From Kiritimatiellia bacterium (GTDB lineage Bacteria; Verrucomicrobiota; Kiritimatiellia; RFP12; UBA1067), in assembly GCA_045536845.1 (NCBI GenBank), contig JAZSOG010000025.1, forward strand, positions 159,993 to 223,992: 64,000 bases of DNA, given 5' to 3'. Within the stretch, counting starts at the first letter, position 1. Each line of letters opens with the position of its first letter. Below, piece by piece: positions 9,297 through 57,658 of the stretch. A program made the position numbers and the translations under genes. The notes beneath the pieces were generated by a model, which made no database searches, was not told where the DNA came from, and saw nothing but the letters and a program-made list of their open reading frames with translations.

Positions 9297-9309
9297 AAAA
9301 TGGTATAAT
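9297..9309 (+). promoter_or_regulatory. extended -10 promoter AAAATGGTATAAT, leaderless (ATG 9317)
   Basis: TGgTATAAT ending 7 nt before ATG. Confidence 0.5.
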
Positions 9310-53549: not shown

Positions 53550-54758
53550 ATGGCGGTGACGGAAACGACGACCCAATCGTGGGGATCTAGGCTCGGTGAC
53601 TCGATCAAGGGCGTGATAGCAGGTGTTGTGCTTTTCCTCCTTGGCTTCCCGGTACTCTTCTGGAACGAAGGCAACTCTGTCAAGACGGCAAAGGCGCTTG
53701 ACGAAGGCGAGGGCGCGTGCATCCCCGTCGAGTCGATAGAGAAGGTCGACTCCGAGATGGAAGGCCAGCTTGTCCACATGACCGGCCTCGCCACGACACA
53801 GGACGTCCTTTCCGACGATCAGTTCGGCGTTTCCACGACGGCAATCGCGCTGAAGCGCACGACCGAGATGCTCCAGTGGGTCGAGCACTCCAAGACCGAG
53901 GAGAAGAAGAACCTCGGCGGCAGCGTCACCAAGACCACGACCTACACCTACACCCAGGAGTGGCTCGAGAGCGCGGTCGATTCGAGCGGCTTTAAGGAAC
54001 AGGGCCACGACAACCCCGGTTTCATCGAATTCCCCTCCGAGGAGAAGCGCGCGGCGAATGTGACGTTTGGCGCGTTCCGCCTGAACGAGCGCCAGATCTC
54101 CCGCATCGGCGCCGAGCAGGCGTATGCGTTCCCGACCGACTTCGTGTGCAAGGTCGAGCGCGTCCAGCGCCAGGGTGCGACAATCTACGTTCCCAACAAG
54201 GCCACGCGCGACAACGCGCTCAACAACCGTGACGTCGCCTCGCAGGCGCGGATCGGCGATATGCGCGTGAAGTTCACCGTCGTGCTGCCGCACAACATCT
54301 CGCTCGTCGCGAAGCAGAGGGGCGACACGTTCGTTAGCTATATCGCGAAGACGAAGAAGAAAGTCGATCTTCTCTGCGACGGCGCGAAGGACGCCGCCGA
54401 GATGTTCGAGGACGCGCGCGACGCGAACGCGATGCTGACATGGCTCGTCCGCCTCGGCGGTTTCCTCCTCATGTTCTTCGGCCTTTCGATGATCCTGAAG
54501 CCGCTCTCCGTTCTCGCGGACGTGCTCCCGATCCTCGGCAACGTCGTCGAGATGGGCGCCGGGCTTGTCGCGGGCATTGTTGCGCTCGTCTGCTCGCTCG
54601 TCACGATCGCTATAGCGTGGATCTTCTACCGTCCTGTCCTTGCGATCTTCCTGCTCGTCCTCGCGGCAGGCGGAATCTTTCTCCTCTGGAAGAAGCGCCA
54701 GGCGAAGAAGGCGGCCGCCGCCCCCGCGGAGCCTGCCGCGCCTTCCGCGGCGTTCTGA
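53550..54758 (+). CDS. TMEM43/DUF1625-like membrane protein (1 N-terminal TM, large extracytoplasmic domain, 3 C-terminal TM)
   Basis: Topology from hydrophobic segments VIAGVVLFLLGFPVLFW and three C-terminal helices; family assignment from architecture only. Confidence 0.45.
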   Translation: MAVTETTTQSWGSRLGDSIKGVIAGVVLFLLGFPVLFWNEGNSVKTAKALDEGEGACIPVESIEKVDSEMEGQLVHMTGLATTQDVLSDDQFGVSTTAIALKRTTEMLQWVEHSKTEEKKNLGGSVTKTTTYTYTQEWLESAVDSSGFKEQGHDNPGFIEFPSEEKRAANVTFGAFRLNERQISRIGAEQAYAFPTDFVCKVERVQRQGATIYVPNKATRDNALNNRDVASQARIGDMRVKFTVVLPHNISLVAKQRGDTFVSYIAKTKKKVDLLCDGAKDAAEMFEDARDANAMLTWLVRLGGFLLMFFGLSMILKPLSVLADVLPILGNVVEMGAGLVAGIVALVCSLVTIAIAWIFYRPVLAIFLLVLAAGGIFLLWKKRQAKKAAAAPAEPAAPSAAF

Positions 54759-54804: not shown

Positions 54805-55719
54805 ATGAAGAAACTCACGGCATTCGCGCTTGCGGCGCTTGCGTCCGCGGCTGTCTTCGCTGAAGGCGGGAACCTCCGCTATTCGATCATGGTCAACAAG
54901 TTCGAGAACAAGGCCAACTGGCGCGGCCAGTGGGAGCTTGGCGACGCCTGGGGTACGATCCTCACCGACCAGCTCGTCCAGAGCGGCAAGTTCATCGTGC
55001 TCGGCGAGGCCGATATGCGCGGCGCAGCCATGCAGGAGCAGGACCTCGCGGCTTCGGGCCGCACGGCTGGCGGCAAGAAGGCCCCCAAGATGGGCCGTAT
55101 GACCCCGGCGCAGCTGCTCGTGAAGGGCGCGATTACGCACGTCCAGGAGACGAAGGGTGGCGGTGGCGGCATCTCGCTCGGCAAGGGTCTCTTGAGCGGC
55201 ATCTCGCTCGGTGCGAGCGGCGGTTCGGCCGAGATCAACATCACGATCTACCTCGTTGACTCCGCGACCGCGCAGGTCAAGGCGTCGAAGTCCGTCATCG
55301 GCAAGAGCGGCAAGCGCGGCATTGGCATCGGCTACCACGGCAGCAAGCTCGGCGGCCTCACCGGCAACCTCGCCGGCTTCGAGAAGGACAACATGGGCCA
55401 GGCCTGCACCGACGCCGTCGCGCAGGCAGTTGAGTTCCTTGTCGCCCAGCTCGACTCGATTCCGTGGGAGGGCTCGGTCTCGCTCGTCAAGTCGGACAAG
55501 CTCGTCGTCAACCGCGGTACTCGCGAAGGCGTCGAGGTCGGCATGAAGTTCGACGTCGGCAAGGTCGAGGAAATCGTCGACGAGGACACTGGAGAGGTTC
55601 TCGACAGCGAACTCACGAAGATCGGCACTGTGACCGTCACCGAGGTCAAGGAGAAGATCTGCTACACGACCGCGCTCGAAGGCGCCGAGAAGGGCATGGG
55701 CGTGCAGCCCGCCAAGTGA
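54805..55719 (+). CDS. CsgG/HfaB-family-like secreted protein (no lipobox Cys)
   Basis: Signal peptide MKKLTAFALAALASAAVFA; block VNKFENKANW...LGDAWGTILTDQLVQSGKFIVLGEADMRGAAMQEQDL...AQLLVKGAITHV fits CsgG-family pattern; Gly-rich loops. Confidence 0.5.
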   Translation: MKKLTAFALAALASAAVFAEGGNLRYSIMVNKFENKANWRGQWELGDAWGTILTDQLVQSGKFIVLGEADMRGAAMQEQDLAASGRTAGGKKAPKMGRMTPAQLLVKGAITHVQETKGGGGGISLGKGLLSGISLGASGGSAEINITIYLVDSATAQVKASKSVIGKSGKRGIGIGYHGSKLGGLTGNLAGFEKDNMGQACTDAVAQAVEFLVAQLDSIPWEGSVSLVKSDKLVVNRGTREGVEVGMKFDVGKVEEIVDEDTGEVLDSELTKIGTVTVTEVKEKICYTTALEGAEKGMGVQPAK

Positions 55720-55740
55720 TGTGTGCGTCATCGCGCCAGT

Positions 55741-55752
55741 TTATGGTATAAT
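55741..55752 (+). promoter_or_regulatory. extended -10 promoter TTATGGTATAAT upstream of NifU-like/GGGtGRT pair
   Basis: ATG 55787 with AAAGGAG RBS. Confidence 0.5.
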
Positions 55753-55786
55753 TTCCGGTCAAGTTTTCACAACAAAGGAGACAAAA

Positions 55787-56479
55787 ATGGTCTACTCGAC
55801 TGAAGTTGAGCATCAGTGCCCGCTCATGAAGGGGTGCAACCACGGTCCCGCGCCGATTCCCGAAGAGGGGAAGTGGGTGCAGGCAAAGCAGATAAAGGAC
55901 ATCAGCGGCTACACGCACGGCGTGGGCTGGTGTGCGCCTCAGCAGGGAGCGTGCAAGCTCTCGCTGAACGTCAAGAACGGCGTGATCGAGGAAGCCCTCG
56001 TCGAGACGATCGGCTGCTCGGGCATGACCCACTCCGCCGCCATGGCCTCGGAGATTCTCGTCGGCAAGACGATTCTCGAGGCGCTTAACACGGACCTCGT
56101 CTGCGACGCGATCAACACCGCGATGCGCGAGCTCTTCCTTCAGATCGTCTACGGCCGCACGCAGAGCGCGTTCTCCGAGGGCGGTCTCGTGATCGGCGCC
56201 GGCCTTGAGGACCTCGGCAAGGGTCTTCGCTCGATGGTCGGCACGATGTACGCGACGAAGGCAAAGGGCCCCCGCTACCTCGAGATGACCGAGGGCTACT
56301 GCACGCGCATGGCGCTCAACAAGGACGGCGAGGTTATCGGCTACGAGTTCGTCAGCCTCGGCAAGATGACCGACTTCATCAAGAAGGGACTCTCCCCGAA
56401 CGAGGCGTGGGAGAAGGCGAAGGGCCACTACGGCCAGTTCGAGGGCGCTGCGAAGTACATCGACCCCCGCAAGGAATAA
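55787..56479 (+). CDS. IscU/NifU-N-terminal-domain-like protein
   Basis: Block VGWCAPQQGACKLSLNVKNGVIEEALVETIGCSGMTHSAAMASEILVGKTILEALNTDLVCDAI parallels IscU scaffold (three Cys positions). Confidence 0.5.
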   Translation: MVYSTEVEHQCPLMKGCNHGPAPIPEEGKWVQAKQIKDISGYTHGVGWCAPQQGACKLSLNVKNGVIEEALVETIGCSGMTHSAAMASEILVGKTILEALNTDLVCDAINTAMRELFLQIVYGRTQSAFSEGGLVIGAGLEDLGKGLRSMVGTMYATKAKGPRYLEMTEGYCTRMALNKDGEVIGYEFVSLGKMTDFIKKGLSPNEAWEKAKGHYGQFEGAAKYIDPRKE

Positions 56480-56497
56480 GCGAAAGGAGATTCCGAA

Positions 56498-57535
56498 ATG
56501 GCTACCAAGAAGACTGCAAAGAAGGCCTCCGCCGAGAAGCTTTTCGAGGGATACGAGCGTCGCGAAGCCAAGATCCTCGCCGCGCTGAAGCTCTACGGCA
56601 TCAAGTCGATACTCGAGTGCCGCGACATCTGCAAGAAGGCCGGCATCGACCCCTACAAGATCGTCGAGGAAACCCAGCCGATCTGCTTTGAGAACGCCAA
56701 GTGGGCCTACACCGTCGGCGCTGCGATGGCGATCAAGAAGGGCTGCGTCAAGGCCAAGGACGCCGCCGCCGAAATCGGCGTCGATCTCCAGGCGTTCTGC
56801 ATCCCCGGCTCCGTCGCGGAGAACCGCCAGGTCGGCCGCGGACACGGCAACCTGGGCGCGATGCTCCTTGACGACGCGACCGAGTGCTTCGCGTTCCTCG
56901 CGGGCCACGAGTCGTTCGCCGCTGCCGAGGGCGCGATCAAGATCGCCCTCAACGCGAACAAGGTCCGCAAGACGAACCTCCGCGTCATCCTGAACGGCCT
57001 CGGCAAGGACGCCGCGTACATTATCAGCCGCATCAACGGCTTCACGTACGTCAAGACGGCGTTCAACAACAAGACCGAGAAGGTCAAGGTCGTCTCGAAG
57101 AAGGCGTTCTCGAAGGGCCCGCGCGCTGCGGTCAACTGCTACGGCGCGGACAACGTCCCCGAAGGCGTCGCGATCATGAAGCTCGAGAACGTGGGTGTCT
57201 CTATCACGGGCAACTCCACGAACCCGACCCGCTTCCAGCACCCTGTCGCCGGCACCTACAAGAAGTGGTGCATCGAGAACGGCAAGAAGTACTTCTCCGT
57301 CGCTTCTGGCGGCGGCACCGGCCGTACGCTCCACCCCGACAACATGGCCGCCGGTCCTTCCAGCTACGGCATGACCGACACCATGGGCCGCATGCACTCC
57401 GACGCGCAGTTCGCGGGCTCGAGCTCGGTTCCTGCGCACGTCGAGATGATGGGCCTCATCGGCATGGGCAACAACCCGATGGTCGGCGCGACGGTTGCCG
57501 TCGCAGTCGCCGTCGAGGAGAGCTTCAAGAAGTAA
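56498..57535 (+). CDS. GGGtGRT-family protein (conserved protein of unknown function)
   Basis: Contains exact family motif SGGGTGRT (VASGGGTGRTLHPD); ~345 aa as typical for family. Confidence 0.65.
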   Translation: MATKKTAKKASAEKLFEGYERREAKILAALKLYGIKSILECRDICKKAGIDPYKIVEETQPICFENAKWAYTVGAAMAIKKGCVKAKDAAAEIGVDLQAFCIPGSVAENRQVGRGHGNLGAMLLDDATECFAFLAGHESFAAAEGAIKIALNANKVRKTNLRVILNGLGKDAAYIISRINGFTYVKTAFNNKTEKVKVVSKKAFSKGPRAAVNCYGADNVPEGVAIMKLENVGVSITGNSTNPTRFQHPVAGTYKKWCIENGKKYFSVASGGGTGRTLHPDNMAAGPSSYGMTDTMGRMHSDAQFAGSSSVPAHVEMMGLIGMGNNPMVGATVAVAVAVEESFKK

Positions 57536-57658
57536 TCTTCCCAAAAGCAGGAAAGGGAGCGCGGAACGGTTATCCGCGCTCCCTTTTTGTTTGCACAATG
57601 CCAATCCTGCCATCCTTTGAGACGTTTGTTTCTGGAGAGCTACGGGCGCCGCTCGATT

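What the first reader, a model, noticed from the sequence alone, without database searches (positions are those of the whole stretch)
55787..57535. IscU/NifU-like scaffold homologue paired with a GGGtGRT-family protein
The first protein aligns to the IscU/NifU N-terminal scaffold block including three Cys positions, but with altered spacing (QGAC instead of CGD). The second contains the eponymous SGGGTGRT motif of the uncharacterised GGGtGRT family. The two genes are 18 nt apart behind one TGGTATAAT promoter. This conserved pairing has no assigned function; it may be an Fe-S or metal-handling accessory system.
Basis: partly seen in the sequence, partly recalled or inferred. Interest (0 to 1): 0.55.

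Follow-up and report, generated by a model that had tools for sequence, protein, structure and literature searches.

The report
Conserved NifU-like/GGGtGRT two-gene operon
This is a real, self-contained two-gene operon for an IscU-fold cysteine-rich protein and a "GGGtGRT" protein, a pair that anaerobes keep almost unchanged and make in large amounts, whose function is still unknown and which looks more like an iron-dependent enzyme than an iron-sulfur assembly helper.

Summary
Gene A (55787-56479, 230 aa) has an IscU fold but only just reaches the Pfam NifU_N cut-off. Gene B (56498-57535, 345 aa) is a full-length PF14057 GGGtGRT protein. They lie 18 nt apart, between a house TGGTATAAT promoter and a strong terminator.

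The pairing was found in all 78 testable genome loci. It also occurs in Vibrio, Persicobacter and a Methanobacteriaceae archaeon.

Both proteins are unusually conserved: 75-87% identity between phyla, although the DNA composition matches each host.

A lacks the hallmarks of an IscU scaffold. Cys37, Asp39, His105 and the LPPVK motif are all replaced, no cysteine desulfurase gene lies nearby, and A carries an extra C-terminal domain.

B has no relative in the PDB by sequence or fold. It does have a Rossmann-like core with a GxGxxA fingerprint.

Published work shows the pair is abundant in gut and rumen proteomes and repressed when iron is scarce. In B. thetaiotaomicron, disrupting it weakens glucose signalling.

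A new lead: a divergent branch (about 50% identity) always sits with phosphoglycerate-mutase-type genes.

Best reading: a two-subunit iron (probably Fe-S) enzyme, possibly acting on three-carbon phosphate metabolites. The function is unproven. This window holds an ordinary member of a known but uncharacterised pair.

The parts
55744..55752 (+). Extended -10 promoter element TGGTATAAT, preceded by a T-rich stretch, with no recognisable -35
   Evidence: There are 11 exact copies in the window, all on the + strand and all upstream of + strand ORFs, against 0.05 expected by chance. This copy lies 34 nt before the start codon of A.
55776..55780 (+). Ribosome-binding site AGGAG of gene A
   Evidence: Read directly from the sequence. 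GAAAGGAG is also the most frequent 8-mer upstream of A homologues, found in 20 of 68 loci.
55787..56479 (+). Gene A: a 230-aa IscU-fold protein with an extra C-terminal domain
   Evidence: Pfam NifU_N scores 22.1 bits against a cut-off of 22. Foldseek matches IscU structures with probability 1.0 and E 1e-4. More than 8000 homologues were found, and the listed ones are 70-98% identical. The start codon agrees with the homologues.
55904..56152 (+). IscU-like domain of A (about residues 40-122) carrying H44, C49, C56, C77, H82 and C106. The Cys codons are at 55931-55933, 55952-55954, 56015-56017 and 56102-56104.
   Evidence: These residues are invariant in 62 close homologues. C49, C77 and C106 are kept in Vibrio, Persicobacter, the archaeon and the divergent branch. 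C56 is Ala in Vibrio, and H82 is Gln in the divergent branch.
56267..56476 (+). C-terminal domain of A (about residues 161-230), absent from IscU
   Evidence: AF2 pLDDT is about 80-90 for residues 170-230. The only fold resemblance is weak, to the C-terminal domain of lipoate-protein ligase (E about 0.02). No Pfam match was found.
56480..56497 (+). 18-nt spacer with the AAGGAG ribosome-binding site for gene B
   Evidence: Read directly from the sequence. Spacers are 14-112 nt in 78 loci. The two genes overlap by 8-11 nt in the divergent-branch loci L081, L086, L088 and L090 and by 4 nt in L095.
56498..57535 (+). Gene B: a 345-aa GGGtGRT protein (PF14057) with a 13-residue Lys-rich N-terminal extension not found in most homologues (332 aa)
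   Evidence: PF14057 scores 622.5 bits. The AF2 model has pLDDT 81 and pTM 0.83. Most homologues are 332 aa long.
56981..57067 (+). Beta-alpha-beta unit RVILNGLGKDAAYIISRINGFTYVKTAFN (residues 162-190) with a GxGxxA nucleotide-binding fingerprint
   Evidence: AF2 places a strand at 162-168, a helix at 170-180 and a strand at 183-190. V163, G167, L168, G169, K170, A173, I176, R178 and G181 are invariant in 102 sequences. The best Foldseek hits are NAD(P)-Rossmann dehydrogenases, but they are weak.
57305..57328 (+). The SGGGTGRT motif (residues 270-277) at the start of an almost invariant, glycine-rich segment that extends to about residue 330
   Evidence: S270 to T277, H279, P280, D281, D294, R298, H300 and H314 are invariant in 102 sequences. 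Residues 271-298 have pLDDT below 50 in the monomer model.
57552..57595 (+). Intrinsic terminator: a GC-rich hairpin followed by TTTTTGTTTG
   Evidence: The terminator scan found the hairpin. The RNA fold gives -31.4 kcal/mol and z -5.4, and none of 200 shuffles folded as well.

Best explanation
Genes A and B encode the two subunits of one obligate, iron-dependent protein complex that works as an enzyme, not as an Fe-S assembly scaffold. Shown: the genes are co-transcribed, always adjacent and co-inherited, and both are under extreme purifying selection. Inferred: A holds a metal centre, most likely a stably bound Fe-S cluster, on three conserved cysteines (C49, C77, C106) of an IscU fold in which the lability-conferring Asp is replaced by Ala. 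Inferred: B supplies a Rossmann-like nucleotide- or phosphate-binding core (the GxGxxA, TGNST and SGGGTGRT loops lie at the C-terminal ends of neighbouring strands). B's invariant glycine-rich segment probably becomes ordered only against A or a ligand. Tentative: the substrate is a phosphorylated three-carbon intermediate at the phosphoglycerate level of glycolysis, and the chemistry is either redox (nucleotide plus Fe-S) or Fe-S hydro-lyase-like. I put the general claim (a two-subunit iron enzyme, not a scaffold) at about 0.55-0.6 and the three-carbon-phosphate link at about 0.2-0.25.
For: The unit is one operon, with a promoter, two ribosome-binding sites and a terminator. The pairing was found in 78 of 78 testable loci. 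It also occurs in Vibrio and Persicobacter and in a Methanobacteriaceae archaeon. The A and B identity matrices correlate with r = 0.77 over 2346 locus pairs. In the divergent-branch loci L081, L086, L088 and L090 the two genes overlap by 8-11 nt, and by 4 nt in L095. Conservation is extreme. Among 1.84 billion 50%-identity representatives I recognised only about two intact full-length clusters among the listed hits. About 90 residues are invariant in 102 B sequences. GC, GC3 and codon bias match the host, which argues against recent transfer. A has the IscU fold. Its conserved Cys and His residues are documented, and Asp39 is replaced by Ala. B has the beta-alpha-beta GxGxxA unit, and its top Foldseek hits are NAD(P)-Rossmann enzymes with probability up to 0.99. 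For iron dependence, BT0173-4 falls 11-13-fold under iron depletion (PMC10434189). In C. pasteurianum both proteins are 2.4-7.1-fold higher under iron excess (PMC5395762). For abundance, COG0822 NifU homologues make up about 1% of core human gut metaproteome spectra (PMC3261163), and GGGtGRT and NifU are highly expressed in chicken caecal and rumen bacteria. For the three-carbon-phosphate link, five lineages of a divergent B branch share the cluster A'-B'-C(2TM)-His_Phos_1, and an ApgM gene (517 bits against a cut-off of 489) is present in all four where the flank is visible. One lineage also has GpmI, and gene order is rearranged in L088. Transposon insertions in BT0173-4 were recovered in the same screen as pfkA insertions, as mutants with weaker glucose repression of Cur/Roc (bioRxiv 10.64898/2026.04.10.717545).
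Against: There is no biochemical evidence for a complex, for a metal centre or for any activity. B has no universally conserved cysteine (C214 is Ser in Persicobacter). B has no significant fold or sequence relative, so the Rossmann reading rests on a motif and weak matches (TM at most 0.27). The main branch, to which this window belongs, shows no conserved third gene among 116 flanking genes. The phosphoglycerate link therefore comes only from a paralogous branch and may reflect a specialised role. The B. thetaiotaomicron effect is only 2-fold and was not followed up. Repression under iron limitation fits an iron or Fe-S store equally well. The A model is only moderately confident (pLDDT 66).
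Confidence: 0.4

Rival explanations
1. Fe-S cluster or iron carrier, store or specialised scaffold. A assembles or holds clusters, and B is a nucleotide-dependent partner that loads or releases them.
For: A has the IscU fold and three conserved cysteines. Higher expression when iron is plentiful resembles iron-storage proteins. Ala at the Asp39 position would stabilise a bound cluster; this rests on established knowledge of IscU D39A variants, and such variants are among the PDB hits. High abundance suits a store.
Against: No cysteine desulfurase, chaperone or other Fe-S biogenesis gene is linked to the pair in any locus. The canonical Cys37, His105 and LPPVK are absent. NCBIfam scaffold models score 15-27 bits against cut-offs of 92-273. 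This idea does not explain the phosphoglycerate-mutase clusters or the glucose-signalling phenotype. B carries about 90 invariant residues rich in His, Arg, Ser, Thr, Asp and Glu, which looks like an active site.
Confidence: 0.2
2. A sulfur-relay or thiolation enzyme. A acts like SufU as a persulfide carrier, and B is an adenylating or nucleotide-binding enzyme that inserts sulfur into a metabolite or cofactor.
For: A gives weak matches to SufU as well as IscU. The GxGxxA Rossmann unit and the glycine-rich SGGGTGRT loop in B could bind ATP. An E1-like ATP-binding enzyme (TcdA) appears among the weak Foldseek hits. In the rumen metaproteome NifU and GGGtGRT shift together with cysteine synthase and O-acetylhomoserine sulfhydrylase.
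Against: No cysteine desulfurase or sulfur-carrier gene is linked (and the annotated loci). No PP-loop or E1 family match was detected by sequence or fold. An abundance near 1% of the proteome is unusual for a cofactor-thiolation enzyme.
Confidence: 0.1
3. A redox or oxidative-stress protein of anaerobes, for example an NAD(P)H-linked Fe-S reductase that detoxifies oxygen, peroxide or nitrogen species. It would be co-expressed with rubrerythrin-type proteins and have no dedicated carbon substrate.
For: The pair is found mainly in anaerobes, and it is reported alongside rubrerythrins among highly expressed proteins. A rubredoxin gene lies next to the archaeal copy. Under iron limitation it is down-regulated in B. 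thetaiotaomicron together with hcp. The architecture of a Rossmann-like protein plus a putative Fe-S protein fits a reductase.
Against: The rubredoxin neighbour is a single case, and no stress gene is enriched among 116 flanking genes. A PerR/Fur-type box is not enriched upstream: 1 of 68 loci against 1.25 in shuffled controls. This idea does not explain the phosphoglycerate-mutase clusters.
Confidence: 0.1

Closest known systems
PF14057 GGGtGRT protein paired with a 'NifU' gene, for example Bacteroides thetaiotaomicron BT0173-BT0174 and Clostridium pasteurianum F502_05012/F502_05017
   Same: The two families, gene order, adjacency and size are the same. The window's B matches the Pfam model end to end. 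The B. thetaiotaomicron and C. pasteurianum pairs are described as GGGtGRT plus NifU, and the two proteins are co-regulated by iron.
   Different: Only small differences were seen: a 13-residue Lys-rich N-terminal extension on B, N190 where 90% of homologues have Asp, and a Kiritimatiellae host with a TGGTATAAT house promoter. The known pair itself has no assigned function.
IscU/NifU N-terminal Fe-S scaffold (PF01592; TIGR01999; E. coli IscU, human ISCU2)
   Same: The alpha/beta fold is shared (Foldseek probability 1.0). The second and third ligand cysteines are conserved within the GC(S/G)G and C-terminal helix contexts.
   Different: The first ligand Cys is displaced by four residues (C49; the canonical position is Q53). 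Asp39 is Ala, His105 is Val, and LPPVK is replaced by LNTDL. About 40 residues are added at the N-terminus and about 110 at the C-terminus. No cysteine desulfurase gene is linked. Scores lie far below the equivalog cut-offs.
Two-subunit Fe-S hydro-lyases of anaerobes, such as L-serine dehydratase alpha/beta and class I fumarate or tartrate hydratases. This is a functional analogy from general knowledge only.
   Same: They have two co-transcribed subunits of about 25 and 35 kDa. A metal site on three cysteines would leave one open coordination position. They occur in anaerobes and act on small hydroxy or phospho acids.
   Different: No sequence or fold similarity was detected. B has a Rossmann-like core that these enzymes lack. 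The analogy was not tested beyond those searches.
NAD(P)/FAD-binding Rossmann oxidoreductases
   Same: Residues 162-190 form a beta-alpha-beta unit with a GxGxxA fingerprint, followed in most homologues by an acidic residue (D190) after the second strand. The top Foldseek hits are mannitol-2-, carboxyspermidine- and opine dehydrogenases.
   Different: The matches are not significant (E at least 0.012, TM at most 0.27). No Pfam dehydrogenase family is detected (UDPG_MGDP_dh appears in 9 of 95 members with E at best 0.019). The helical N-terminal domain and the invariant glycine-rich C-terminal segment have no counterpart.

Membership tests
PF14057 GGGtGRT | Whole-protein score above the Pfam gathering threshold with full-length coverage | tested here: met
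   The score is 622.5 bits against a cut-off of 27, covering profile positions 1-326 of 327.
PF14057 GGGtGRT | The GGGtGRT motif that gives the family its name | tested here: met
   SGGGTGRT occupies residues 270-277 (nt 57305-57328). It is invariant in 102 family members.
GGGtGRT + NifU-like gene pair | An IscU-fold gene directly upstream, on the same strand, with a short spacer | tested here: met
   The spacer is 18 nt in the window. The arrangement holds in 78 of 78 testable loci and in Vibrio, Persicobacter and an archaeon.
IscU/NifU_N scaffold (PF01592; TIGR01999, TIGR03419) | Score above the curated cut-off | tested here: inconclusive
   Pfam gives 22.1 bits against a cut-off of 22.0, which is borderline. 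NCBIfam equivalogs give 26.7 against 187.9 and 21 against 192.4, so those are not met.
IscU/NifU_N scaffold | The IscU alpha/beta fold | tested here: met
   Foldseek matches ISCU and IscU structures with E 1.3e-4 to 1e-3, probability 1.0 and TM about 0.5 normalised to the target. The model is only moderately confident (pLDDT 66).
IscU/NifU_N scaffold | Three cluster-ligand cysteines at the canonical positions (E. coli C37, C63, C106) | tested here: not met
   C63 and C106 are matched by C77 and C106. Position 37 is Q53, and conserved cysteines sit at 49 and 56 instead.
IscU/NifU_N scaffold | Asp39, His105 and the LPPVK chaperone-binding motif | tested here: not met
   A55, V105 and LNTDL occupy these positions.
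IscU/NifU_N scaffold | Genomic linkage to a cysteine desulfurase (IscS, NifS or SufS) | tested here: not met
   The window neighbours are a CsgG-like lipoprotein and an SDR. Aminotran_5 is not among the families present in at least 2 of 116 flanking genes. It is absent from all annotated loci.
IscU/NifU_N scaffold | Transient Fe-S cluster assembly and transfer to apo-proteins | not testable with these tools
   This needs anaerobic biochemistry.
Rossmann dinucleotide-binding proteins | Beta-alpha-beta unit with a GxGxx(G/A) fingerprint and an acidic residue after the second strand | tested here: inconclusive
   The fingerprint is present and invariant. D190 is present in at least 90% of homologues but is Asn in the window. 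Structural matches are weak.
Known anti-phage defence systems (PADLOC) | Any match of A, B or the divergent-cluster proteins to defence HMMs | tested here: not met
   A, B, A', B', C, ApgM and His_Phos_1 gave no hits.

The most novel reading that the evidence does not exclude
The NifU-like/GGGtGRT pair is a so far unrecognised, highly abundant, oxygen-sensitive Fe-S enzyme of central carbon metabolism in anaerobes. It would act at the phosphoglycerate level of glycolysis, for example as an Fe-S- or nucleotide-dependent alternative to a classical lower-glycolysis step. Its fold (B) has no solved relative.
Probability: 0.2. Interest if true: 0.85.

Novelty: new member of a known kind. Interest (0 to 1): 0.55.

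Why it matters
The pair is among the most conserved and most abundant proteins of unknown function in gut and rumen anaerobes. NifU homologues account for about 1% of core gut metaproteome spectra, and in the searches run here the listed full-length members of the B family differ by at most about 50% in sequence. B has no relative in the PDB. If the pair is an iron-dependent enzyme of central metabolism, a step in the textbook map of anaerobic carbohydrate fermentation is incomplete. Iron availability would then directly tune that step in the gut. This work supplies testable leads: a three-cysteine IscU-fold site that does not look like a scaffold, a GxGxxA nucleotide-binding unit, and a sister branch tied to three kinds of phosphoglycerate mutase-like genes. 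The copy in this window adds little beyond another phylum (Kiritimatiellae).

Tried and rejected
- **PDB sequence searches for B.** I searched with the single sequence, a 95-sequence profile and the 108-residue motif region. Nothing scored below E 0.2.
- **Motif resemblances recalled from memory.** The GGGTG motif recalls FtsZ/tubulin GGGTG(S/T)G, MogA/MoaB GGTG...D, DhaK GGGSGHEP and PP-loop SGGxDS. None was backed by any sequence or fold hit, so I dropped them.
- **Foldseek with the B model.** There were no hits at E of 0.001 or better against the PDB or BFVD.
- **Weak Pfam hits.** Scanning all 95 B homologues at E up to 10 gave only noise (SepZ in 11, UDPG_MGDP_dh in 9).
- **Defence systems.** PADLOC models gave nothing for A, B or the divergent cluster.
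- **A conserved third gene in the main branch.** ORF clustering over 80 loci and Pfam scans of 116 flanking genes found no family in more than 4 genes.
- **Riboswitch or leader RNA.** An Rfam scan of 11 diverse loci found nothing upstream of the pair.
- **Regulator boxes upstream of A in 68 loci.** I scanned for Rex, Fur, PerR, cre, CodY, IscR and Fnr/Crp boxes. Only Rex (7 against 1.3 in shuffles) and CodY (9 against 3) exceeded the controls. Six of the seven Rex hits are weak AT-rich matches, and the only good site is in L075. I did not inspect the CodY hits. I draw no conclusion from either.
- **A-B gene fusions.** None was recognised among the longer listed hits whose sequences I inspected. 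P0253 is a chimera with an ABC ATPase and P0241 is an internal duplication.
- **Recent horizontal transfer as the cause of the high identity.** I rejected this for the window because GC, GC3 and codon bias match the host.
- **The longer GTG start at 55721 for A.** I rejected it because it lies upstream of the -10 element and homologues start at the MVYS/MIYS position.
Full report
**What is in the window.** Two + strand ORFs occupy the stated interval. Gene A runs from 55787 to 56479 (230 aa) and gene B from 56498 to 57535 (345 aa). The 18-nt spacer carries AAGGAG. A TGGTATAAT element lies at 55744-55752, 34 nt before A's start codon. This element is the window's house promoter: it occurs 11 times, always on the + strand, against 0.05 expected by chance. 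B is followed by a GC-rich hairpin and a T-run (-31.4 kcal/mol, z -5.4). The pair is therefore a discrete two-gene transcription unit. Its neighbours are SecY, a TMEM43-like protein, a CsgG-like lipoprotein, an SDR, an acyl-CoA synthetase and a 2-hydroxyacid dehydrogenase. They appear functionally unrelated to the pair, and several (SecY, the TMEM43-like gene, the SDR and the acyl-CoA synthetase) have their own copy of the promoter element. The closest public sequence is a Kiritimatiellae MAG from goat duodenum, 98-99.6% identical.

**Family assignment.** B is an unambiguous, full-length PF14057 GGGtGRT protein (622.5 bits), with SGGGTGRT at residues 270-277. A reaches the Pfam NifU_N threshold by 0.1 bit (22.1 against 22.0). 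It is far below every NCBIfam IscU/NifU/SufU cut-off. Its AlphaFold model (pLDDT 66) nevertheless matches IscU and ISCU structures with Foldseek probability 1.0.

**The pairing.** In 80 loci recovered from species-representative genomes, 78 have the A homologue directly upstream on the same strand, with a gap of 14-112 nt. The other two are cut at a contig end. The same pair is present in Vibrio sp. THAF191d and Persicobacter psychrovividus and in a Methanobacteriaceae archaeon. Published work describes it in B. thetaiotaomicron (BT0173-4) and C. pasteurianum. Pairwise identities of A and of B across 69 loci correlate with r = 0.77, so the two genes are inherited and evolve as a unit.

**Conservation.** Both proteins are 75-87% identical between Kiritimatiellae, Clostridia, Erysipelotrichia and Treponema. 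The window's B is 68-74% identical to the Vibrio, Persicobacter and archaeal B proteins. In a library of 1.84 billion 50%-identity representatives, I recognised only about two intact full-length clusters among the listed hits (75% and 49% identity). The others I inspected were frameshifted, duplicated or chimeric, and most of the rest match only part of the query. About 90 positions are invariant in 102 B sequences. In the window the genes have host-like GC (0.63), GC3 of 0.88-0.91 and the strongest codon bias of the neighbourhood, with Nc of 29-31. The high identity therefore reflects constraint and not recent transfer, and the codon bias suggests high expression.

**Anatomy of A.**
- The IscU-like domain spans about residues 40-122.
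- IscU Cys63 and Cys106 correspond to C77 and C106.
- The canonical first Cys is Q53, Asp39 is A55, His105 is V105, and LPPVK is replaced by LNTDL.
- C49 is conserved in every lineage examined. C56 is conserved everywhere except Vibrio. H44 is conserved, and H82 is Gln in the divergent branch.
- A has about 40 extra N-terminal residues and an extra C-terminal domain. That domain has no Pfam match and only a weak resemblance to the C-terminal domain of lipoate-protein ligase.
- No cysteine desulfurase gene is linked in any locus.

Several features that define a transient scaffold were thus tested and not met. Three conserved cysteines on an IscU fold with Ala at the Asp39 position fit a stably bound metal centre. 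It could have one open or partner-supplied coordination site.

**Anatomy of B.** The AlphaFold model is good overall (pLDDT 81, pTM 0.83). It shows a helical N-terminal domain (residues 20-124) and a Rossmann-like alpha/beta core (130-270). An invariant glycine-rich segment (271-311) is modelled with pLDDT below 50, and a C-terminal helix follows. Residues 162-190 form a beta-alpha-beta unit with an invariant GxGxxA fingerprint. The invariant TGNST and SGGGTGRT loops follow later strands of the same sheet. The invariant polar residues are mostly His, Arg, Lys, Ser, Thr, Asp and Glu, which suits an anionic or nucleotide ligand or a metal. B has no universally conserved cysteine. No significant relative was found in PDB sequences, PDB folds (best E 0.012, TM at most 0.27, mostly NAD(P)-Rossmann enzymes), BFVD or Pfam. 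The disorder of the most conserved segment in the monomer model suggests that it folds against A or a ligand. That is an inference.

**What the literature adds.**
- BT0173-4 is 11-13-fold down under iron depletion in B. thetaiotaomicron (PMC10434189).
- In C. pasteurianum the GGGtGRT protein is 7.1-fold higher and the adjacent NifU-related protein 2.4-3.7-fold higher under iron excess, alongside PFOR and hydrogenase (PMC5395762).
- GGGtGRT and NifU are highly expressed in chicken caecal isolates and rumen bacteria (PMC11204068 and PMC7035244).
- Transposon insertions in BT0173-4 were recovered together with pfkA insertions in a screen for loss of glucose-dependent Cur/Roc repression. The effect was 2-fold and was not pursued (bioRxiv 10.64898/2026.04.10.717545).
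- None of the papers found in these searches assigns a function.

**A new lead.** A divergent branch of B, about 50% identical to the window protein, keeps all the invariant residues. In five lineages that are 63-79% identical to P0276, the branch's query sequence, the cluster has the same content. That content is an IscU-fold A' (222-225 aa, overlapping B' by 4-11 nt), B', a protein with two transmembrane helices and no known domain (C, 317-332 aa), and a histidine phosphatase or dPGM-superfamily protein. In all four lineages where the flank is visible there is also an archaeal-type cofactor-independent phosphoglycerate mutase (ApgM; NF003104 517 bits against a cut-off of 489). One lineage adds a classical GpmI and has a rearranged gene order, which argues for selection on co-location. 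None of these proteins matches a known defence system. SpoVT/MazE-like and YodL genes nearby hint at a sporulation context. By contrast, the main branch has no conserved third gene. Four or five Oscillospiraceae loci do place a PduL-type phosphotransacylase immediately upstream.

**Interpretation.** The best-supported reading is that A and B are subunits of one iron-dependent enzyme: a putative Fe-S centre on A and a nucleotide- or phosphate-binding Rossmann-like core on B. They do not look like an Fe-S assembly accessory. I put this general claim at about 0.55-0.6. Two weak, independent observations link the pair to three-carbon phosphate metabolism: the phosphoglycerate-mutase clusters of the sister branch and the B. 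thetaiotaomicron glucose-signalling screen. I put that link at about 0.2-0.25. The chemistry, whether redox or hydro-lyase-like, is open. Rival readings are an Fe-S carrier or store (0.2), a sulfur-relay or thiolation enzyme (0.1) and a redox-stress protein (0.1). They are not excluded, because nothing biochemical is known.

**Verdict.** The finding is real and correctly described. Its functional guess is only partly supported. The window copy is an ordinary member of a known but uncharacterised pair. The family deserves experimental attention because of its abundance, its conservation and the absence of any solved structural relative for B.

Noticed in passing
window 9301, 15600, 17097, 29612, 31652, 46025, 51934, 53509, 55744, 57662, 58539: A T-rich stretch followed by TGGTATAAT occurs 11 times, all on the + strand, with no -35 element. 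At 9301, 15600, 31652 and 46025 an ATG lies only 6-11 nt after the element, which suggests leaderless or near-leaderless mRNAs in this Kiritimatiellae genome.
   Followed up: partly
L081 5997-10606; L086 2572-8580; L088 391-6859; L090 301-5405; L095 118-3526: A divergent GGGtGRT/NifU-like branch sits in a conserved cluster with ApgM, a histidine phosphatase-superfamily protein and an unknown protein with two transmembrane helices (317-332 aa). That protein has no Pfam, PDB or PADLOC match. L088 also has GpmI.
   Followed up: partly
L004, L006, L016, L027, L054 (immediately upstream of gene A): A PduL-type phosphotransacylase (PF06130) ends about 30-40 nt before the NifU-like gene on the same strand in some Oscillospiraceae. 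It may be co-transcribed with the pair.
   Followed up: no
L002 (labelled Alistipes onderdonkii), L045 (labelled Collinsella sp.): L002 carries A and B that are 94-98% identical to the Kiritimatiellae window, and L045 carries Clostridia-like copies. Both are probably mis-binned contigs in their MAGs.
   Followed up: no
window 53550-54758 and 54805-55719: A bacterial TMEM43-family protein (PF07787, E 4e-72) lies next to a CsgG-like lipoprotein. Each has its own TGGTATAAT promoter or a start close to one.
   Followed up: no
P0241 (494 aa), P0253 (517 aa), P0331, P0379: Several of the 50%-identity representative clusters of the GGGtGRT family turned out, on inspection, to be artefacts: an internal duplication, a chimera with an ABC ATPase, and frameshifted reading frames. 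Counts of family diversity taken from such libraries are therefore inflated.
   Followed up: partly
L085 5971-6138: In the Methanobacteriaceae contig a rubredoxin gene lies directly downstream of the pair on the opposite strand, and ThiC lies upstream.
   Followed up: no
MT835590.1, MT837192.1 and four other 'Bacteriophage sp.' records: GGGtGRT homologues occur on unannotated human-faecal contigs deposited as phages. These may be bacterial contamination of viromes, or the gene may really be carried by phages.
   Followed up: no
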